A stretch of DNA of 64,000 nucleotides from positions 9,836 to 73,835 of IMG/VR virus record IMGVR_UViG_3300009702_000023; one strand, 5' to 3'. Shown piece after piece: positions 6,035-27,974 of the stretch. This stretch comes from a virus. The position numbers were made by a program, and so were the translations under genes. Every line of letters starts with the position of its first letter. The first letter of the stretch is position 1. A model generated the notes under the pieces. That model was not told where the DNA came from, did not search any database, and saw nothing but the letters and a program-made list of their open reading frames with translations.

Positions 6035-8668
6035 TTAATGCTTTTTTAAACTTGATCGGGGTTTAAATATATTAATAAATGCCTCATATTCTTTATTTTT
6101 CTCGGCATTAGTTTTAATAAATAAATCTTTATTTTCGCCTAAACCATATCCAGGGGGGTATGGATTTTTAGATTCTTGAACATTTCGTATAAAATATGTA
6201 ATTGCATCGCAATTATGAACGGCAATATCATTAACGGTATAACTATTGTCTTCTTCAACTTCCAGATTATATACTTTTCCCGTATATAAACTCTCACTTT
6301 TTGTTAATTTTTTAAAATTCGATGGGTAATTATACTTATTTTTCGAAATTATATCATGTATTAACTTATCTTCAAATATATAAGCTAAATCTTCATTTTT
6401 ATTAATGTTTGTTATTAGATCTATGGCTTGTTGCTTATCTAAGTGCCAAATATATTGATCTTTTGCCGAAGGAGAAGATTTCCATCTTCCTTCCCGCTTT
6501 TGAAATGTAATATTACCCACTAATCCTAATTTTCTAGATAATATATCAACCCCATGTATAATTTCTTTACTAATGCTATTACCGATTATTCCGGTTTTAG
6601 AAAAATAACCATCGCCAAATAAATAACCAAGTAACATATACATAGATTGTTCTTTATTCAAATCATATATAAATGGGGGAAAATGTTTTTGGGTACTAGT
6701 GCCTAATTTTTTCAACTCTGATCTAAGTTCGGATTGTGTAACACATATAATTCTACCATTATCACTGTCTTTTTTATAATATCGGGCCTTCGTGCTTCGA
6801 GGTTTACACTCTCCATTTTTATGTCGGTTAATAGATCGCCTAGATACGCCACGTTTACCTTTTCCATATGTATTATGTACTGCCTTTTCTAATATACCTA
6901 AAACATTTTTTTCTCTTTTATGACCGGCAAAAGATATTTGGTGCCCATTCCCACCAACAGATCCTTCGGCAACATAATATCCGTATAAAAAACATAATTC
7001 TTTTGTAATATTAATATTTCCTTCTTCAATAAAAGGAATATAAGCTTTATGATTTTCAAAATTTAATTCAGCAGCGGGACTCCAGTTAGTGCCAGTAATT
7101 ATTTTTTGACCAGTAAAACCTTCTTTTCTATTTTTTTCAACATTGCCAACATATAACCGATGATTAGGTGTACATTGCATCAACTCTCTTCCCGGAACTT
7201 TTATGTCACAAATTTCCCCAGAATAATCTCTATTCATAGTATTTGTAACTTTTTTAAATCTACCTTGGTGAGTTAATACTTGATCTCCGATAACAATATC
7301 TTCTATTTTTTTATACCCAGCATTGGTTAAAACTTTTTGGCCAGGCAAAAAACAGGCATCGTAATGTCCTGAAGGAATAAAAATTGTATTATTTTCTTCA
7401 TCATATAAAGTTACAGCGGGAGATTTAACATATTTCTTTCGATTTTTATCCCATGTAGCATTTTTTAAATGATGTATTAAAACTTTGCATCTGGGGTGTA
7501 TTATAATTTTTTCTGATGCAATCCTCATCCTGAGATTGTTTAATGCAGCGTCTTTATTATCTTTTGCTGTAGGAATAAATAATAAATTATGTTTATAATT
7601 TAAATCATTCAATAAAATTAAGTTATTATTATCAGATACTCTTAAATATGGCTCTTTATATTCTCCCGATGCCGGGTTAGAATATACTTTCTGTTCTTTT
7701 TTCTTAATTTCCTTAGCTAATACATCTGTACGTAATGCTTGACCTTTAATATAAAATTCATCCTCAATAACGGTAACGGCATTTTTAAAATCATAATATC
7801 CAAACAAAACCACTGTTAAATCATCAAATCCTATGTCCATTGACACATAGGCGTCATAAAATGGGGGTCTTGGCCAGGCTTTTATACATTTTTCTTGAAT
7901 AGCTGTTGTAAATTCGGGAATTACGGCTTTTTCAGAGTCAATAATAATTTCACAAAGGTATTCTCGGCGGAAATCATCATCTTTTTCTTTTAAAGGGTAA
8001 CGATTAATGATTTTTTGTCTTTTTTCGGGAGTCATCATGGGATTATCAAATAACGTGTACTTAATTAACTCCCCCGTCAACTCGTTTGGTTGAACAAACT
8101 CCGTTATAAATTCATGATCGGGCTTAGGTGATGGTGTAGAAGCTAAAATGCCCCGACCGCCGGTAGTATCCGCCGTTGGAGCAAGGACAGAATTAACAAT
8201 ATCCTTCAATTCATCGCAAAAACCTGCCTCATCGACAATCCATAGATCGGATTTACCTCCGCGAAGTGATTGGTAGTGGCCATTATCTGTTCCTGCTATC
8301 TGAATTTGACTTCCATTAGGAAAAAGGTACATTTTGGCATTAGTTTTATATTCTGGGCGCAATTCCGGGGGGCAATCTTTAAAAATATCTTGCATAATCG
8401 GTTTAATAATCTTTTGCACCATGTCTTGCTTAGGACAAACATATTTAACAATAGAATCTGGTTTTTTGAGACACTGTTCAACAGATAATACACATAATAA
8501 ATAACTTTTGCCCAATCTTCGGGCACAAGTAATAACCGTTATTTCTTTATTGAAATCATTAATAGAGTTATACATGCGTTTTTGAACTTCATGTAATTTC
8601 CAATGAATAACCCCTCGTCGCCAAAGAGTAAATAATGCCTCTTTAGGTGTTGGTTTTTTTATTTCCAT
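6035..8668 (-). CDS. terL: Terminase large subunit, intein-containing
   Basis: ARRLGKS Walker A, LRGG, WIVDEAG Walker B, ASTP, RNase H-like MDIG and HYDA^CDA motifs. Confidence 0.92.
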   Translation of the reverse strand: MEIKKPTPKEALFTLWRRGVIHWKLHEVQKRMYNSINDFNKEITVITCARRLGKSYLLCVLSVEQCLKKPDSIVKYVCPKQDMVQKIIKPIMQDIFKDCPPELRPEYKTNAKMYLFPNGSQIQIAGTDNGHYQSLRGGKSDLWIVDEAGFCDELKDIVNSVLAPTADTTGGRGILASTPSPKPDHEFITEFVQPNELTGELIKYTLFDNPMMTPEKRQKIINRYPLKEKDDDFRREYLCEIIIDSEKAVIPEFTTAIQEKCIKAWPRPPFYDAYVSMDIGFDDLTVVLFGYYDFKNAVTVIEDEFYIKGQALRTDVLAKEIKKKEQKVYSNPASGEYKEPYLRVSDNNNLILLNDLNYKHNLLFIPTAKDNKDAALNNLRMRIASEKIIIHPRCKVLIHHLKNATWDKNRKKYVKSPAVTLYDEENNTIFIPSGHYDACFLPGQKVLTNAGYKKIEDIVIGDQVLTHQGRFKKVTNTMNRDYSGEICDIKVPGRELMQCTPNHRLYVGNVEKNRKEGFTGQKIITGTNWSPAAELNFENHKAYIPFIEEGNINITKELCFLYGYYVAEGSVGGNGHQISFAGHKREKNVLGILEKAVHNTYGKGKRGVSRRSINRHKNGECKPRSTKARYYKKDSDNGRIICVTQSELRSELKKLGTSTQKHFPPFIYDLNKEQSMYMLLGYLFGDGYFSKTGIIGNSISKEIIHGVDILSRKLGLVGNITFQKREGRWKSSPSAKDQYIWHLDKQQAIDLITNINKNEDLAYIFEDKLIHDIISKNKYNYPSNFKKLTKSESLYTGKVYNLEVEEDNSYTVNDIAVHNCDAITYFIRNVQESKNPYPPGYGLGENKDLFIKTNAEKNKEYEAFINIFKPRSSLKKH
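6212..7354 (-). mobile_element. Intein (381 aa) with LAGLIDADG homing endonuclease
   Basis: Starts CFLPGQKV, TPNH block B, LYGYYVAEGS and LLGYLFGDGY motifs, ends VYNLEVEEDNSY...VHN followed by Cys+1. Confidence 0.93.
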
Positions 8669-9107
8669 TAGCAGATCCCGCAATTTGAATTAATTCGGTT
8701 TCACTTAGATTTTTATATTGAGTATTATCTAGATTAATAGTGCTTTGTTCTCTTGATAATCGTTTATTTTTAACTAAAAGATCATATTGGCGGGTTTCTT
8801 CTAAAGTCAATTTACGATTTCGAGCATCTTGTCGGAGTTTTTCTAATTGCAATTCTGCAATTTCTTCTTCGGGGGCAATCTCAATACTAATTATTTTTTG
8901 TTCTTTTTTATTTTCAATTAGAACTGGGACATTTTGTTCGACAAGAGATTTTAAATGAACGATTTCTTCATCTTTTTTTCTTGCATTACGAATTAATTTA
9001 TCAATTGTCTTAAAAGCTGCCTTATTTTCTCGTTTTAAACGGGCCAATTCAGTTTGTAACTCAGCAACTTCCTTCAACTCTGTTATATTTTTAACATTTT
9101 TATTCAT
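8643..9107 (-). CDS. Coiled-coil protein, possible terminase small subunit
   Basis: Directly upstream of and overlapping terL; positional evidence only. Confidence 0.4.
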   Translation of the reverse strand: MNKNVKNITELKEVAELQTELARLKRENKAAFKTIDKLIRNARKKDEEIVHLKSLVEQNVPVLIENKKEQKIISIEIAPEEEIAELQLEKLRQDARNRKLTLEETRQYDLLVKNKRLSREQSTINLDNTQYKNLSETELIQIAGSANGNKKTNT

Positions 9108-21451: not shown

Positions 21452-21775
21452 ATGAAAATTTGTAATGGTAATTTAACCATAAATAAAGACAATGTTAATG
21501 ATTTTAAAAACCTTGAAGTTGTAATAGGACGTATAAAATTTGAAAATAAAGTTAAATTTAATGCACCTAAATTAAAAATTGTTGGCTCTTGGATTTTTAT
21601 GAATGAAGGTATGGAGTTTAATGCGCCAAAATTACAAATTATTATGGGAGCTATTAAGATGGTTAATAATGCCAAGTTTAATGCACCGAAATTAGAAATA
21701 GTCTGTGACTATGTTGGTTTATATAATGGCGCTAAATTAATAGCCCCAAAATTAAAAATAAAGGCAGGTAAATAA
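21452..21775 (+). CDS. Short 20-aa repeat (LRR/beta-solenoid-like) protein
   Basis: FNAPKLxI repeats; paralogue of 26246..27271. Confidence 0.7.
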   Translation: MKICNGNLTINKDNVNDFKNLEVVIGRIKFENKVKFNAPKLKIVGSWIFMNEGMEFNAPKLQIIMGAIKMVNNAKFNAPKLEIVCDYVGLYNGAKLIAPKLKIKAGK

Positions 21776-22343: not shown

Positions 22344-23414
22344 ATGAAAGGATATAAAGCATTTAATAAAGATTTAACTTGTCGAAAGTTTCAGTTTGAA
22401 ATTGGCAAAACTTATGAGCATTCGGGAGAATTAAGTTTATGTAACTCGGGTTTTCATTTTTGCACCAAATTGGCAGATTGTTTTAGTTATTATATTTTTA
22501 GTGATAAACCTATTATTTGCGAAGTTGAAATATTGGGTAAAGTATTAACAGATAGTCAACGAGACTCTAAAGCCTGTACTGATAAAATAAAAATTATTAG
22601 AAAATTATCATGGGATGAAGTTTTAAATTTAAGCAATTCGGGCTATAATAATTCGGGCTATAATAATTCGGGCAATTATAATTCGGGCAATTATAATTCG
22701 GGCGATTATAATTCTGGTCATTATAATTCGGGCTATCGTAATTCGGGTCATTATAATTCGGGCAATCGTAATTCGGGCAATTATAATTCGGGCGATTATA
22801 ATTCTGGTCATTATAATTCGGGCTATCGTAATTCGGGCAATTATAATTCGGGCGATTATAATTCGGGCGATTATAATTCGGGCTATCGTAATTCGGGCAA
22901 TTATAATTCGGGCTATCGTAATTCGGGCGATTATAATTCGGGCGATTATAATTCGGGCGATTATAATTCGGGCTATCGTAATTCGGGCAATTATAATTCG
23001 GGCGATTATAATTCGGGCTATCGTAATTCGGGCAATTATAATTCGGGCAATTATAATTCGGGCAATTATAATTCGGGCAATTGTAATTCGGGTTTTTTTA
23101 ACACTAACAATCCTAAACTTAGATTATTTAATAAAGAAACAAATTATGAATCTAGTAATGAGATATATAATAAATTACAAAAATTACAAAAATATAGTAA
23201 ACCCATTTTAATATGGGTTTCAGAAAATAAAATGACTGATCAAGAAAAAAAAGACAATCCTAAATATGAAACAACTAAAGGATATTTAAAATATACTGGC
23301 AAACAAAAATGGGATAAATTAAGTAAAGAGGATGAGGATTGGCTTACATCATTGCCCGAATTTGACTCTGATATATTTTTTGAATTAACAGGACTAAAAC
23401 TGGAGAAAAAATAA
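22344..23414 (+). CDS. NSGxx pentapeptide-repeat protein with DUF7666-like N-terminus
   Basis: KGYKAF..DLTCR.FQFEIGKTY...CNSGFHFC; 31 NSGxx units. Confidence 0.85.
   Translation: MKGYKAFNKDLTCRKFQFEIGKTYEHSGELSLCNSGFHFCTKLADCFSYYIFSDKPIICEVEILGKVLTDSQRDSKACTDKIKIIRKLSWDEVLNLSNSGYNNSGYNNSGNYNSGNYNSGDYNSGHYNSGYRNSGHYNSGNRNSGNYNSGDYNSGHYNSGYRNSGNYNSGDYNSGDYNSGYRNSGNYNSGYRNSGDYNSGDYNSGDYNSGYRNSGNYNSGDYNSGYRNSGNYNSGNYNSGNYNSGNCNSGFFNTNNPKLRLFNKETNYESSNEIYNKLQKLQKYSKPILIWVSENKMTDQEKKDNPKYETTKGYLKYTGKQKWDKLSKEDEDWLTSLPEFDSDIFFELTGLKLEKK
22635..23099 (+). repeat. 31 x 15-bp coding tandem repeat
   Basis: AATTCGGG(C/T)-N6 units. Confidence 0.95.
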
Positions 23415-23576
23415 TGACATGGATTATGTTAGCACTTTGTTTACATGGTAGTCCCATGATTGTCAATTTCGGGAGTGATAAAAATAAATGTGAGGTTGTT
23501 GCTAACGAATTTATAAGGTCAGGCATGAAATGTGATTTTAAATGTTTGAGAATAAAATAAAAGAGGAGATTAAATA

Positions 23577-24851
23577 ATGATTGAAAAATTAACAGATAAA
23601 CAAGAAAAATTAGTTTCGGTTTATAGAGATAAATGGCTGGAAATCGGGAGATCAGTTAAACCTATAGATAAAGAAAAAACCACAAAGTCAATTAATTGGC
23701 TATATAAATTTGGGAAACGTAGTGAAACCCCTTATATGTGGTTTTGTGATAGCCCATTACAAATGCAATTAATAATTAATTTATTGCGAGATGAAGATTT
23801 TAAAAAAGTATTGGTGGAAAATCTTAGGTCTAATCTAGGGTCTAATCTTAGGTCTAATCTTAGGTTTAATCTAGGGTCTAATTTAGAGTCTAATCTTAGG
23901 TCTAATCTAGGGTCTAATCTAGGGTCTAATCTTAGGTCTAATCTAGGGTCTAATCTTAGGTCTAATCTAGGGTCTAATTTAGAGTCTAATCTTTGGTCTA
24001 ATCTAGGGTCTAATCTTTGGTCTAATCTAGGGTCTAATCTTTGGTCTAATCTTAGGTCTAATCTTAGGTCTAATCTTAGGTCTAATCTAGGGTCTAATCT
24101 TAGGTCTAATCTAGGGTCTAATCTTAGGTCTAATCTTTGGTCTAATCTAGGGTCTAATCTTTGGTCTAATCTAGGGTCTAATTTAGAGTCTAATCTTTGG
24201 TCTAATCTTAGGTCTAAAAATTTAAAATTTGAACATTTTTTTAGTCCCAATATTGAATCGTATTGGGTCGGATATTATGATTATATTTTACATGAATTAT
24301 TTCCGGAAAAAATAAATGAATTTGAAGAATTTAGTAAAAATTGTATAAATTTTTATAAAAATACATATTTAATTGTCCCATTTGAAAATATTTGTTTTAT
24401 TTCAGAAAGGCCAATAGAATATAATTTAAATGAAGAAGGTAGATTACATAGTTTAGATAAACCATCAATGAAATTTAAAGATGGATATGAATTTTATAGT
24501 TTAGATGGTATAACTATAGATAAAACAATTATTGATGCTTGTAATGAAAAAACGGAGCCCAATAAAATATTAAGTTTAAAAAATGTAGAGCAAAGATTAG
24601 TTGGAATTAAATATTTTGGAATTGAGAATATGTTAGAACAATTGGGGGGTAAAATTATAGATGAATATAAATATTATAAATTATTAGAGGTTGAAATCGA
24701 GGGTAGCAAAGAAAAACTATTGCAGATGGAAAATCAAAGTGGTAATCAAATACATTACGAATTTGTAACTCCCGATATTACTACTTGCAAAAAAGCATTA
24801 TCTTGGAGAATAGGATTAGATATATATAATGAACCAAAAGCAATCTCATAA
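23577..24851 (+). CDS. Tetrapeptide-repeat protein with DUF6745-like C-terminal domain
   Basis: IEKLT..QE N-terminus; NL(R/G/E/W)S repeats; ERP...GRLH...P...F.DG...Y. Confidence 0.8.
   Translation: MIEKLTDKQEKLVSVYRDKWLEIGRSVKPIDKEKTTKSINWLYKFGKRSETPYMWFCDSPLQMQLIINLLRDEDFKKVLVENLRSNLGSNLRSNLRFNLGSNLESNLRSNLGSNLGSNLRSNLGSNLRSNLGSNLESNLWSNLGSNLWSNLGSNLWSNLRSNLRSNLRSNLGSNLRSNLGSNLRSNLWSNLGSNLWSNLGSNLESNLWSNLRSKNLKFEHFFSPNIESYWVGYYDYILHELFPEKINEFEEFSKNCINFYKNTYLIVPFENICFISERPIEYNLNEEGRLHSLDKPSMKFKDGYEFYSLDGITIDKTIIDACNEKTEPNKILSLKNVEQRLVGIKYFGIENMLEQLGGKIIDEYKYYKLLEVEIEGSKEKLLQMENQSGNQIHYEFVTPDITTCKKALSWRIGLDIYNEPKAIS
23820..24215 (+). repeat. 33 x 12-bp coding tandem repeat
   Basis: Units AATCTTAGGTCT, AATCTAGGGTCT, AATTTAGAGTCT, AATCTTTGGTCT. 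Confidence 0.95.
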
Positions 24852-25581: not shown

Positions 25582-25931
25582 ATAAACCAAAAGTAATTTT
25601 AATCCCAGTTTCAAGACTACAGAAACTAACATTTATTAGTAAATTAGTTAAACTTAAATCCGAACACTGGTCGGGGGAATTGGCGTTGGCCGCATATAAT
25701 AATAGTGATGAAATTAAACCAATGCTCCAGGAATTGGGGGCTACAGACTACTTCCTAATTGATAAAGAAAGATTCATTAGTTATGTTAACTTGCATGATC
25801 CCGATCTTATGAAAAAAATGAAAAAGGGTTTAGCCGATAAAAGGATTAAATTTGACACAGCGCACAATGCTAAAAAAGAGGATTTTATGATTTATGATGT
25901 AACTTATGATACATATTGGACATTAGTGTGA
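25569..25931 (+). CDS. Hypothetical protein
   Basis: GGAGG RBS; ORF track. Confidence 0.55.
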   Translation: MHRINKPKVILIPVSRLQKLTFISKLVKLKSEHWSGELALAAYNNSDEIKPMLQELGATDYFLIDKERFISYVNLHDPDLMKKMKKGLADKRIKFDTAHNAKKEDFMIYDVTYDTYWTLV

Positions 25932-25934
25932 TAT

Positions 25935-26189
25935 ATGAAATATTCAATTGAACTTATAAAATTATCAAAATCGGGAAGGGCGGTTAGTCGAAAAGAAAAA
26001 TTCTTTTATAATATTAAAGATGTAAAAGAATATTATAATCAAGCTAAAAAAGAATTTAATACATTAATTAATGTTAAATTATATGATAGTACACAAAGCC
26101 CTAAATGGACAAAAAAGTGCGATTATATTATTAGTTTACAACAAGATAAAGGTACTTTTTATATTAGTGAACAAAAAGCGAAAGGATAG
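25935..26189 (+). CDS. Hypothetical protein
   Basis: ORF track. Confidence 0.45.
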   Translation: MKYSIELIKLSKSGRAVSRKEKFFYNIKDVKEYYNQAKKEFNTLINVKLYDSTQSPKWTKKCDYIISLQQDKGTFYISEQKAKG

Positions 26190-26245
26190 AAGATGAATTG
26201 GTATTATTTTCAAACAGATACCAGTTTGATAAAAAGGAGTATTTT

Positions 26246-27271
26246 ATGAAAATTCATAAAGGCGATTTGTTAATTAATAAAGATAATGTTAATGATTTTA
26301 AAGATCTCGAAATTGTAACTGGTTGTGTTTCTATACATGAAAGAGTAAAGTTTATCGCCCCGAAATTAAAAACAATTGGTAAATATACCTCGATATCTTA
26401 TGGGGCAGAATTTACTGCTCCGAAATTAAAAACTATTGGCGGTGATGTATTTATTCAATCGGGGGGAGAATTTAATGCTCCGAAATTAGAAATTATTAGA
26501 CAAGAAGTTTATATTAATCCGCAAGGAAAATTTGTAGCCCCCGAATTAGAAATAATTGGGAAGTACTTATCACTATATAATGGGGCAGAGTTTAATGTTC
26601 CGAGGTTAGAGGCTATCGGAGGCAGAGTCGCCTTATCTAAGGGGGCAAAGCTTCGGGCGGAGAGGTTGGAGGTTGTCGGAGGTTCTGTCTACGTTTATAG
26701 GGGGGCGGAGGCTCGGGCGCCGAGGCTGGGGGTCGTCGGGCATTATGTGTGCTTGTTGGGAGGGGGTAAGTTGGAGGCACCGGGGTTGGAGATAGACCTA
26801 TCTTTGGAAGGTCCACTGATCGCAGAGATGAACCTGCGGTTATTATTGTGGCGAAAGGGCTTCGTTTTAATAGATGGCATCTTATCTAAATTATTAAGTG
26901 AGAAAACTGTTGGCGATGTTAATGTAATGAAAGTATTAAACATTGGAGATACTAAACCGTCATATATTGTGGAAAGGAATAATGCATTTGCTCATGGCAA
27001 TACTATTAAAAAGGCAATAGAGGATATTCGCTACAAAATCGGAGACAGGAATGTATCAGAATTCGGGGGGTGGAAAGACAATCTTGATCAAGAGATTAGT
27101 TTGGATGTCGCTATTACAGGTTATCGAGTTATCACTGGGGCTTGTGAAGCGGGAGTGAGGGGGTTTATTAATTCAATTAAAGTGCCGAAGAAATTAACGC
27201 CTAATGTAATACTTAAATTAACCGAAGGTCAATATGGTAATGACACATTTCGGGAGTTTTTAAACAATTAA
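26246..27271 (+). CDS. 20-aa repeat (LRR/beta-solenoid-like) protein with conserved C-terminal domain
   Basis: AGGAG RBS; about nine 60-bp repeats; AHG.T...A, YRVITGACEAG..F, YG. Confidence 0.8.
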   Translation: MKIHKGDLLINKDNVNDFKDLEIVTGCVSIHERVKFIAPKLKTIGKYTSISYGAEFTAPKLKTIGGDVFIQSGGEFNAPKLEIIRQEVYINPQGKFVAPELEIIGKYLSLYNGAEFNVPRLEAIGGRVALSKGAKLRAERLEVVGGSVYVYRGAEARAPRLGVVGHYVCLLGGGKLEAPGLEIDLSLEGPLIAEMNLRLLLWRKGFVLIDGILSKLLSEKTVGDVNVMKVLNIGDTKPSYIVERNNAFAHGNTIKKAIEDIRYKIGDRNVSEFGGWKDNLDQEISLDVAITGYRVITGACEAGVRGFINSIKVPKKLTPNVILKLTEGQYGNDTFREFLNN

Positions 27272-27287
27272 TTTGGGAGAAAAAACA

Positions 27288-27974
27288 ATGTTTTTAGGTC
27301 AAGAATTTAATGACGGTGATATTGTAAGAGTGAGATTGAAAACCGAAGAACAATTGGATATAGTAATGATAAATATGGATGACTATGATAAATTTTCATT
27401 TTATACCGCAGAGTTTTGGGGCTTTTTAGGAACAGAGATTGATTGTATTTATAATCAAGAATCGGGTTTAAAATTTCATGGTGTTGTAATTCCTCAATTT
27501 ATATGTGACGAAATTATTTCTGGCTATATTAATTGGGCGGAAGTTGAAGATGGGGCGCACTTAAATGTTATGTTATTAAGTCCGTATGAAATAGGATATA
27601 AAGATCTATATAATATTAATAGTAATGGCAATTTAACTTCTACGGATAACAAAACTATATATAACATTCCAATAGACAATTTTTATCAAAAAAATGTTGA
27701 AATCATTTTTAATAAAGAATCAAATAGTTTTTGTTTACGCGGTTATAATCAAAAGCTCCCTTTAGACTTGATTAAAAAAATTAATAATCCGGTAAAATCT
27801 ACACCGAAAACGCCAAATAAATATAAAAAATTAAGATTACCTATTAGTAGAACAGCTTTAATATTTAAAGAAGATGGTAAAATGCAATTAGGCACTTTAA
27901 GTATTAAGAAAAAAGATGCTTTGTTTTTACTTCGCAAATTGGCTATTGAATATAATTATTTAGAGGAAGAATAA
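27288..27974 (+). CDS. Hypothetical protein
   Basis: GGGAG RBS; ORF track. Confidence 0.55.
   Translation: MFLGQEFNDGDIVRVRLKTEEQLDIVMINMDDYDKFSFYTAEFWGFLGTEIDCIYNQESGLKFHGVVIPQFICDEIISGYINWAEVEDGAHLNVMLLSPYEIGYKDLYNINSNGNLTSTDNKTIYNIPIDNFYQKNVEIIFNKESNSFCLRGYNQKLPLDLIKKINNPVKSTPKTPNKYKKLRLPISRTALIFKEDGKMQLGTLSIKKKDALFLLRKLAIEYNYLEEE

What the first reader, a model, noticed from the sequence alone, without database searches (positions are those of the whole stretch)
26590..26880. Localised A:T->G:C hypermutation tract inside a repeat-solenoid gene
Seen: the gene is built of 60-bp repeats that act as an internal control. Upstream copies read CGAAATTAGAAATTATT(A/G)G (P-K-L-E-I-I). Downstream copies read CGAGGTTAGAGGCTATCGG, AGAGGTTGGAGGTTGTCGG, CGAGGCTGGGGGTCGTCGG and CGGGGTTGGAG. 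Almost all changes at conserved positions are A->G or T->C, many non-synonymous (K->R/G, I->V/A, E->G), with density peaking near 26700-26760 and fading on both sides. Hand count: GC 121/200 (~60%) at 26601-26800 versus 79/240 (~33%) at 26341-26580. Known: DGRs mutate A to any base on one strand and need an RT and template repeat, neither seen in this window. Inference: a focal, two-strand adenine-directed process (adenine deamination, or dG/dI misincorporation under skewed dNTP pools) is diversifying or scarring this binding-type protein. Such transitions cannot create stop codons, so the intact ORF does not prove selection.
Basis: partly seen in the sequence, partly recalled or inferred. Interest (0 to 1): 0.85.

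Follow-up and report, generated by a model that had tools for sequence, protein, structure and literature searches.

The report
G-rich island inside phage repeat gene
A 280-base stretch of one phage repeat-protein gene is far richer in G (and somewhat in C) than anything else in this AT-rich genome; it is real and the protein is intact, but the data cannot show whether local A-to-G mutation or imported DNA caused it.

Summary
Window 26582-26864, covering the last three 20-aa solenoid coils and the linker of gene 26246-27271, has 57% GC against 33% for the genome. Its third-codon-position GC is 0.68 against 0.22 (z about 6), the strongest outlier in about 700 kb of phage DNA examined. An independent assembly of the source run reproduces it without a difference. 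At strictly conserved repeat columns, 18 of 21 changes are A>G or T>C. A>G dominates: 71% of conserved A changed, against 17% of conserved T. So the shift is coding-strand G enrichment, not a two-strand process.

- GC-richer arrays from unrelated phages give the same transition-only spectrum against the AT-rich copies, so the signature is not diagnostic.
- The family consensus agrees with the tract as often as with the upstream copies, so the direction of change is unproven.
- The tract coils are as conserved as the flanks, and the fold is predicted intact.
- The record holds no RT, template repeat, deaminase or error-prone polymerase, so this is not a DGR.

My odds are about 0.40 for directional change within the array, cause unknown, and about 0.35 for import of a GC-richer allele by recombination. 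Interest is moderate.

The parts
26246..27271 (+). Gene for a 341-aa phage protein (ATG start; an upstream TTG at 26198 gives 357 aa). It has an N-terminal beta-solenoid of 20-aa coils, a linker helix and a conserved alpha/beta C-terminal domain of unknown function.
   Evidence: ORF. Homologues. AlphaFold2 model with pLDDT 95.4. Beta-helix matches at Z about 15 for residues 1-189. No Pfam or PHROG hit of its own.
26300..26599 (+). AT-rich solenoid units o0-o4, 60 bp each, 30-37% GC, GC3 about 0.21. The consensus is P-K-L-(K/E)-(T/I)-I-G.
26582..26864 (+). The compositional island: 57% GC, with G 116, C 46, A 52 and T 69. These are the change-point boundaries.
26600..26779 (+). G-rich solenoid units o5-o7 (PRLEAIGG.., ERLEVVGG.., PRLGVVGH..), in exact 60-bp register with the AT-rich units. 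They are predicted as regular coils.
   Evidence: pLDDT is 94-98 over residues 119-178.
26780..26863 (+). Degenerate last coil plus linker helix (residues 179-206), still inside the island. Its motif IAEMNLRLLLWRKG is shared only with the closest relative, P0062.
26864..27268 (+). Conserved C-terminal domain (D210, H250-G251, Y293..T297-G-A-C300) at ordinary AT-rich composition (GC3 0.32).
21452..21775 (+). Truncated paralogue of 107 aa. Its head is 80% nt identical, followed by four AT-rich 20-aa units and a nine-codon stub. It has no C-terminal domain. I used it as extra AT-rich reference units.
26700..26740 (+). Relaxed G-quadruplex-type motif (four G3+ runs, loops of 12 or fewer) on the coding strand. 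The only other such motifs on the + strand lie in two 15-bp repeat arrays.
   Evidence: This is a pattern match only.

Best explanation
The island arose within this lineage's own repeat array. The last three coils and the linker underwent a directional change dominated by A>G on the coding strand, affecting synonymous and conservative non-synonymous sites alike. Purifying selection meanwhile kept the beta-solenoid fold. Shown: the shift is real, fixed in the assembly, unique in the genome, G-specific and in register, and the protein is predicted intact. Inferred: that the change happened in place rather than by import, and that it accumulated under selection rather than in one burst. The cause is not identified. 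Candidates are a local mutation or repair bias that favours G on the coding strand, or selection for a G-rich coding strand or mRNA. It is not a DGR, and no encoded enzyme accounts for it.
For: (1) The tract keeps the exact 60-bp period, frame and motif of the AT-rich units. Periods in the family range from 18 to 21 aa.
(2) At strictly conserved columns, 18 of 21 changes are transitions and 15 are A>G. Third-position A changed in 8 of 9 cases. At positions 1 and 2, 14 of 33 conserved A changed to G and 12 were kept, as expected if selection filtered the changes.
(3) Third-position codon choice fits 'own usage plus transition shift' (lnL -81.4, pA 0.68, pT 0.36). This is better than the codon usage of mid-GC loci (-88.8) or GC-rich loci (-88.1). 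Arg AGR:CGN is 5:3 and Leu TTR:CTN is 8:5, like the genome itself and unlike GC-rich loci.
(4) G3/(G3+C3) is 0.75, in the top 0.13% of 1531 windows of comparable GC3 from 53 phage loci. An imported segment of typical composition would not look like this.
(5) The head, upstream units, tract units and linker all have the same nearest relative, P0062, at rank 1-2.
(6) No donor was found. The best non-self match to the tract is 55% identity among 1.84 billion representatives. A search of the 5.8-billion set restricted to the tract region found only the protein itself. None of 79 related loci matches at the nucleotide level.
(7) The tract units are as diverged from each other (59% nt identity) as the upstream units are (61%). 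Most arrays in this family are homogenised.
Against: No mechanism is known that would raise G on one strand of about 280 bp of a dsDNA phage by this much.
- The record encodes no RT, deaminase or error-prone polymerase. Its replicase is a family B polymerase with a proofreading domain.
- The transition-rich spectrum and the preserved purine/pyrimidine pattern are reproduced by foreign GC-richer arrays.
- Polarity is unproven.
- AT>GC transversions occur (T>G 5-9).
- GC by codon position (0.65/0.48/0.66) resembles ordinary arrays of 40-45% GC phages of the family, such as L003 and L025.
- Some relatives' arrays are also rich in TTR and GGG codons, such as L001 and L002.
- Both boundaries abut the most conserved motifs, P-K-L-E and G-x-x-x-D-G-I-L, where crossovers between diverged alleles would be expected.
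- Counts from the three tract units are not independent, because o5 and o6 share derived states.
Confidence: 0.4

Rival explanations
1. Recombinational mosaic. The last three coils and the linker were replaced, or converted, by the corresponding part of a GC-richer allele of the same subfamily. The crossovers lay in the conserved P-K-L-E unit motif and at the start of the conserved C-terminal domain. The A>G look then arises simply because the same protein motif is written in GC-richer codons.
For: Foreign arrays give the same spectrum against our AT-rich units: L006 24/24 transitions, L035 24/28. L006 has purine/pyrimidine identity of 0.84 with the upstream units, against 0.75 for the tract. 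The family is extremely modular: at least four unrelated repeat types sit on one C-terminal domain. Arrays of 40-45% GC relatives have GC3 of 0.63-0.76. The boundaries lie at conserved motifs, and a sharp-edged plateau fits as well as a gradient. The tract units are more like the family consensus than the upstream units are.
Against: No donor above 55% identity exists in any collection searched. The G over C excess is in the top 0.13% of comparable windows. The tract uses AGG, TTG and GGG codons rather than the CGN, CTN and GGC of GC-rich usage. The tract has the same nearest relatives as the flanks. A donor would need the same 20-aa period and an equally unhomogenised array. It would also have to infect the same AT-rich host.
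Confidence: 0.35
2. Enzymatic or pool-driven adenine-directed hypermutation. Either adenines of the coding strand are deaminated, or dGTP/dITP is misinserted during local resynthesis. This happens in repeated rounds filtered by selection.
For: 71% of conserved A changed to G, against 17% of conserved T to C. A preceded by A changed in 12 of 12 cases. Third-position A changed in 8 of 9 cases. Thr, Gln and Phe are absent from the 80 codons and Asn occurs once, as A>G at first and second positions would predict.
Against: No deaminase, RT or error-prone polymerase is in the record. No precedent is known to me in dsDNA phages, and a literature search found none. T>G and A>C changes are not explained. 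The neighbour preference is confounded with codon position. The calibrators show that the spectrum is not specific. The tract is not more diverged from relatives than the flanks are.
Confidence: 0.12
3. Selection for a nucleic-acid feature on the coding strand or mRNA: G-runs or a G-quadruplex, Shine-Dalgarno-like GGAGG pause sites, or a cluster of rare codons before the C-terminal domain.
For: Six of the genome's 27 plus-strand GGAGG lie in the tract (codon-shuffle P 0.03). There is a relaxed G4 motif at 26700-26740. The Gly15 codon is GGG in six of the eight units o0-o7, although GGG is only 16% of Gly codons in the genome. All the enriched codons are rare in this genome.
Against: RNA folding is unexceptional (z -1.56) and there is no Rfam match. 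The GGAGG excess follows from the repeated Gly-Glu-Gly codon pattern. None of these features explains the K>R and T>A replacements.
Confidence: 0.06
4. A DGR variable region written from a template repeat and RT located elsewhere, either in the missing 12% of the phage or in the host.
For: The patch is A-depleted on the coding strand and lies in a binding-type protein.
Against: The record holds no RT and no template copy. A changes to G rather than to any base, and T changes as well. The target is a beta-solenoid rather than a C-type lectin or Ig fold, and the tract is not at the C-terminus.
Confidence: 0.03
5. An assembly or sequencing artefact, such as a chimeric join or an error patch.
For: This is a single metagenome sample, and only contigs could be inspected.
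Against: An independent Logan assembly gives an 18-kb contig at word depth 17 with 0 differences. No other contig of the run covers the tract at 85% likeness or more. The JGI and ENA assemblies encode the same protein. The tract is in frame, in register and folds.
Confidence: 0.03

Closest known systems
Diversity-generating retroelements (Bordetella phage BPP-1 mtd/TR/brt)
   Same: Adenine-centred change on the coding strand, confined to a short patch of a phage binding-type protein, with the reading frame kept open.
   Different: There is no RT and no template repeat. A changes almost only to G, and T also changes. The patch lies in a beta-solenoid in the middle of the gene, not in a C-terminal lectin fold. 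There is no evidence of ongoing variation.
ADAR-type biased hypermutation of RNA viruses (clustered A>G / U>C, as in persistent measles virus; own knowledge)
   Same: Dense, clustered A>G changes. Adenines that follow A or T are hit more often than the first A of a run.
   Different: This is a dsDNA phage with its own family B polymerase. No RNA stage is known, bacteria have no ADAR, and the record has no deaminase. The context signal is confounded with codon position.
GC-biased gene conversion, proposed for bacteria (Lassalle et al. 2015, PMC4450053)
   Same: A directional AT>GC shift that includes synonymous sites, in a region (a tandem array) prone to recombination. Arrays of this family show a GC3 excess of +0.15 in 16 of 17 loci.
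   Different: gBGC should be symmetric between strands. Here G rises 0.23 and C 0.05. The family-wide excess is mostly in C3, whereas this tract's excess is in G3. The tract units are not homogenised.
Ordinary phage mosaicism (compositional islands from recombination between diverged phages)
   Same: A segment of deviant GC3 with edges at conserved motifs, in a highly modular gene family.
   Different: No donor has been found. The G/C asymmetry is unusual and the codon families resemble the genome's own.
Repeat-induced point mutation (RIP) of fungi (own knowledge)
   Same: A transition-only signature that affects repeated DNA.
   Different: RIP runs in the opposite direction (C:G to T:A) and is a eukaryotic process. 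Here the duplicated part (head plus first units, which has a paralogue) is the AT-rich one, but that composition is simply the genome norm.

Membership tests
DGR (diversity-generating retroelement) | Reverse transcriptase (RVT_1-type) encoded nearby | tested here: not met
   PF00078 finds nothing in the 73.8-kb record at E<=1. The record is 88% complete, so the remaining 12% is unseen.
DGR (diversity-generating retroelement) | Template repeat nearly identical to the variable region except at adenines | tested here: not met
   blastn-short of the tract against the whole record gives only chance hits of 18 nt or fewer.
DGR (diversity-generating retroelement) | Substitutions only at template adenines, to any base | tested here: not met
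   A>G 22-26 against A>C/T 7-8. T also changes: T>C 6-7 and T>G 7-9.
DGR (diversity-generating retroelement) | Variable region at the C-terminus of a C-type-lectin or Ig-like target | tested here: not met
   The tract covers residues 113-206 of 341, in a beta-solenoid and linker.
Deaminase-driven A>G hyperediting (ADAR/TadA-like) | Clustered A>G with few other changes | tested here: inconclusive
   A>G accounts for 15 of 21 changes at invariant columns. Foreign GC-richer arrays give similar spectra, and polarity is unproven.
Deaminase-driven A>G hyperediting (ADAR/TadA-like) | A deaminase available to the element | tested here: not met
   PF00383 and PF00962 are absent from the record. The host is unknown.
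Deaminase-driven A>G hyperediting (ADAR/TadA-like) | Sequence-context preference around edited A | tested here: inconclusive
   A after A changed in 12 of 12 cases, while the first A of a run was often kept. This is confounded with codon position and K>R selection.
Horizontally acquired / recombinant segment | Composition at synonymous sites deviates from the host genome | tested here: met
   GC3 is 0.68 against 0.22, z about 6.
Horizontally acquired / recombinant segment | Identifiable donor lineage, or different nearest relatives than the flanks | tested here: not met
   The best non-self match is 55% identity or less. The nearest relative, P0062, is the same as for the flanks. The databases are sparse for this clade.
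Horizontally acquired / recombinant segment | Codon usage typical of a GC-richer genome | tested here: inconclusive
   A shift of the genome's own usage fits better than pooled mid-GC or GC-rich usage, and the G3 bias is extreme. Some relatives' arrays use TTR and GGG codons too.
GC-biased gene conversion | AT>GC bias for both transitions and transversions, symmetric between strands | tested here: not met
   The bias is present (45 AT>GC against 3 GC>AT) but strongly asymmetric: G +0.23, C +0.05.
Phage 'repeat array + YRxITGAC C-terminal domain' protein family (unnamed) | Conserved ~140-aa C-terminal domain with invariant D, HG, Y..TGAC, preceded by tandem repeats | tested here: met
   58 homologues and 200 viral loci were found. 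The invariant columns are D210, H250, G251, Y293 and T297-C300.
Pfam LRR_5 / Recep_L_domain | Match above the Pfam gathering score | tested here: not met
   The protein has no Pfam family at E<=0.01. Only some homologues carry PF01030 or PF13306. The fold is a beta-helix.

The most novel reading that the evidence does not exclude
A focal, coding-strand-specific adenine-to-guanine mutator acts on a dsDNA phage gene without a reverse transcriptase. It could be a host or phage DNA/RNA adenine deaminase, or G-biased patch synthesis. It would rewrite the last coils of a binding-type solenoid while selection keeps the fold. That would be a targeted mutagenesis mechanism distinct from DGRs.
Probability: 0.12. 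Interest if true: 0.85.

Novelty: new member of a known kind. Interest (0 to 1): 0.42.

Why it matters
If the shift happened in place, it would be the first sign of a targeted, strand-specific A>G process in a DNA phage that works without a retroelement. That would bear on how phages diversify binding proteins. If it is imported DNA, it is a clean example of sub-domain mosaicism in a very modular and uncharacterised family of early phage proteins. The work also gives a general caution. Comparing GC-rich and AT-rich copies of a conserved protein repeat yields an apparently transition-only 'hypermutation' spectrum, whatever the cause. Internal repeats are therefore not a safe ancestral control. 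A side result is that repeat arrays of this family carry a systematic GC3 excess that is unexplained.

Tried and rejected
- The DNA of the closest relatives, P0062 and P0061, was not found in viral contigs or metagenome contigs. Only a distant locus, L080, came back.
- The phage database gave no nucleotide match.
- No related phage was found through the neighbouring amidoligase gene.
- Only one sequencing run holds the stretch. It is probably the source sample and is kept as contigs, so read-level polymorphism, strand bias and read quality could not be examined. No RNA holder is listed.
- The purine/pyrimidine identity test looked supportive at first (tract against upstream 0.75, upstream against upstream 0.78). 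I rejected it as non-diagnostic once foreign arrays scored 0.65-0.84.
- I considered the codon-family argument (AGR, TTR) decisive at first. I weakened it because the arrays of L001, L002, L024, L027 and L035 use such codons too.
- I examined a link to the family-wide GC3 excess of arrays. It is doubtful, because that excess is mostly in C3 while this tract's is in G3.
- The shape of the island (gradient or plateau) cannot be resolved.
- There is no structured RNA (z -1.56, no Rfam match).
- Alternative-frame ORFs in the tract are open only because the stretch is GC-rich, and they lack starts.
- One terminator-like hairpin, at 26817-26842, is no more than chance would give.
- Foldseek against the PDB gave no significant match for the whole model. 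The fold of the C-terminal domain was not searched separately.
- A literature search found no described A>G tract in phages.

Full report
**1. What is there**

The window belongs to a 73.8-kb linear virus record from a subsurface metagenome (33.4% GC, 88% complete by CheckV). It is a tailed phage with these genes:
- an SU10-like portal;
- a large terminase that carries a LAGLIDADG intein;
- a DnaB-type helicase;
- its own family B DNA polymerase with an exonuclease domain.

The finding lies in gene 26246-27271 (+), which encodes 341 aa. The protein has an 18-aa head and then 20-aa (60-bp) units starting at 26300 in perfect register. A linker and a conserved C-terminal domain follow.

AlphaFold2, run with 50 homologues, gives pLDDT 95.4:
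- a regular three-stranded solenoid through residues 1-178, including the tract (pLDDT 94-98);
- a helix at 189-203;
- an alpha/beta domain.

The solenoid superposes on beta-helix adhesins and tailspikes at Z about 15. Foldseek found nothing significant for the whole model. The protein has no Pfam or PHROG family of its own.

**2.

- GC reaches 0.72 in 60-nt windows.
- The island is the strongest in the record.
- A change-point fit places it at 26582-26864.
- It is not an amino-acid effect only. GC at codon positions 1/2/3 is 0.65/0.48/0.66, against 0.43/0.30/0.21 just upstream.
- GC3 of 0.68 lies 6 sd above the genome mean of 0.22, and the runner-up window is 0.48.
- In a scan of the genome plus 79 related viral loci (about 700 kb) it is again the top outlier, z 6.1 against 3.8.
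- An independent Logan assembly of the only run that holds the sequence gives an 18-kb contig at word depth 17 with no difference across 25600-27800. No second contig covers the tract.
- The JGI and ENA assemblies encode the same protein.

So the tract is real and fixed in the assembled population. Raw reads were not available.

**3. The spectrum**

Against the four upstream units, the changes are as follows.

| Change | Count |
|---|---|
| A>G | 26 |
| A>C | 4 |
| A>T | 4 |
| T>C | 6 |
| T>G | 9 |
| T>A | 1 |
| GC>AT (all) | 3 |

I found a truncated paralogue at 21452-21775: the head is 80% nt identical, followed by four AT-rich units. This raised the AT-rich reference to seven units.

At the 16 invariant columns the changes are A>G 15, T>C 3, T>G 1, C>G 1 and C>A 1. 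The change is very one-sided, though:
- 71% of conserved A changed, against 17% of conserved T.
- Overall, G rises by 0.23 and C by 0.05.
- G3/(G3+C3) is 0.75, in the top 0.13% of 1531 windows of similar GC3 from 53 phage loci.
- Third-position A changed in 8 of 9 cases. At positions 1 and 2, 14 of 33 conserved A changed to G and 12 were kept.

**4. Why the hypermutation reading is not established**

*(a) The spectrum is not specific.* I treated the arrays of unrelated phages of the same family as mock tracts and scored them at the same columns against the same AT-rich consensus. L006 gives 24/24 transitions, L021 9/9, L035 24/28 and L001 9/11. L006 also keeps the purine/pyrimidine pattern better than the tract does (0.84 against 0.75-0.77). 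A conserved P-K-L-E-x-[IV]-G-G motif written in GC-richer codons therefore looks 'A>G/T>C-mutated' by construction.

*(b) The upstream units are not a safe ancestral control.*
- Across 90 family members the consensus is V at column 6, G at 7 and G at 8. The tract matches this; the upstream units do not.
- The tract units are 51-55% identical to the nearest relatives, against 38-46% for the upstream units.
- Only R (or G) at column 2 and E at column 1 are clearly derived in the tract.

*(c) No machinery was found.* The record holds no RT, no CDA-type or adenosine deaminase, no Y-family polymerase and no template-like copy of the tract. A DGR is excluded on four counts (see the membership test).

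*(d) The shape is uninformative.* A gradient and a plateau fit equally well.

**5. What favours change in place over import**

- The 20-aa period and the register are identical to the flanks, whereas the family ranges from 18 to 21 aa.
- Third-position choice fits the genome's own usage shifted by transitions (lnL -81.4). This is better than pooled mid-GC or GC-rich usage (-88.8, -88.1). The choice of Arg and Leu codon families is like the genome's own.
- The G over C excess is extreme.
- The tract units are as unhomogenised as the upstream ones.
- The closest relative, P0062, is the same for the head, upstream units, tract and linker. It was found only by an exhaustive phmmer search and has the same 20-aa period and a shared IAE(I/M)NL.L.LW.KG linker motif.
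- No donor above 55% identity exists among 1.84 billion representatives, or in a region-restricted search of the 5.8-billion set.

**6. What favours import**

- The family swaps whole arrays. At least four unrelated repeat types sit on one C-terminal domain.
- Arrays of 40-45% GC relatives have just this GC profile.
- Some relatives use TTR and GGG codons.
- The edges sit at the two most conserved motifs.
- AT>GC transversions occur.
- No precedent or mechanism is known for a G-specific local mutator in a dsDNA phage.

**7. Verdict**

My odds are:

| Reading | Probability |
|---|---|
| Directional change in place, cause unknown | about 0.40 |
| Recombinational import | about 0.35 |
| Adenine-directed mutator specifically | about 0.12 (listed on its own; I have not settled how much of it overlaps the 0.40 for change in place) |
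| Selected nucleic-acid feature (GGAGG excess P 0.03, relaxed G4 motif, unexceptional fold) | about 0.06 |
| DGR acting in trans | about 0.03 |
| Artefact | about 0.03 |

The decisive data are raw reads and the nucleotide sequences of P0062-like relatives.

**8. Side result**

After correcting for amino-acid composition and the codon usage of each locus, the repeat arrays of this family have a GC3 excess of +0.15 in 16 of 17 loci (Wilcoxon P 4e-4). The excess is mostly in C3, so it is probably a different phenomenon from this G3-rich tract.

Noticed in passing
L001-L079: In well over half of the 79 IMG/VR loci, the homologous gene sits at the very end of its contig, with the repeat array facing or cut by the end. 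Assemblies seem to break in these arrays, either because they are repeats or because they vary in the population.
   Followed up: no
L041, L043, L045, L048, L005, L025, L056, L062, L003, L004, L063: One conserved ~140-aa C-terminal domain (YRxITGAC motif) is fused in different phages to at least four unrelated tandem-repeat types: 18-21-aa LRR-like, 8-aa SSRVEAWG, 9-aa ASSGDYSKL and 8-aa GCTFKTGS. The family is unnamed, highly modular and of unknown function.
   Followed up: partly
17 related loci: The repeat arrays of this family have a GC3 excess of +0.15 over expectation from amino-acid composition and the codon usage of each locus. It is positive in 16 of 17 loci (P 4e-4), mostly in C3, and occurs in AT-rich and GC-rich phages alike. 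The cause is unexplained.
   Followed up: partly
window 21452-21775 (+): A truncated paralogue of the solenoid gene, 107 aa. The head is 80% nt identical, followed by four AT-rich units. It ends nine codons into a fifth unit, which in the full gene is close to the point where the G-rich tract begins.
   Followed up: partly
window 6035-8683 (-): The large terminase subunit is interrupted by an intein with a LAGLIDADG homing-endonuclease domain (Terminase_6N plus Hint/Intein_splicing plus LAGLIDADG_3).
   Followed up: no
window 22344-24851 (+): Two neighbouring early genes also carry long short-period arrays: NSG(x)Y pentapeptides at 22344-23414, and SNL(R/G/W) tetrapeptides with a DUF6745 C-terminal domain at 23577-24851. 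The 15-bp arrays hold most of the genome's relaxed G4-type motifs on the + strand.
   Followed up: no
window 26826 (ATG, in frame): An in-frame ATG (M194) lies at the right edge of the G-rich tract. Initiation there would yield the linker helix and C-terminal domain alone. Short homologues of 189-229 aa, which align with the query mainly over the C-terminal domain, exist in other phages (P0004-P0010). No clear ribosome-binding site is seen.
   Followed up: no
L034:3205-3933; L026:3325-3576: Other odd repeat ORFs turn up in related phage loci: a long (VW)n/(GW) frame in L034 and an HSQS/HRQS repeat in L026. Both appear among the GC3 outliers.
   Followed up: no
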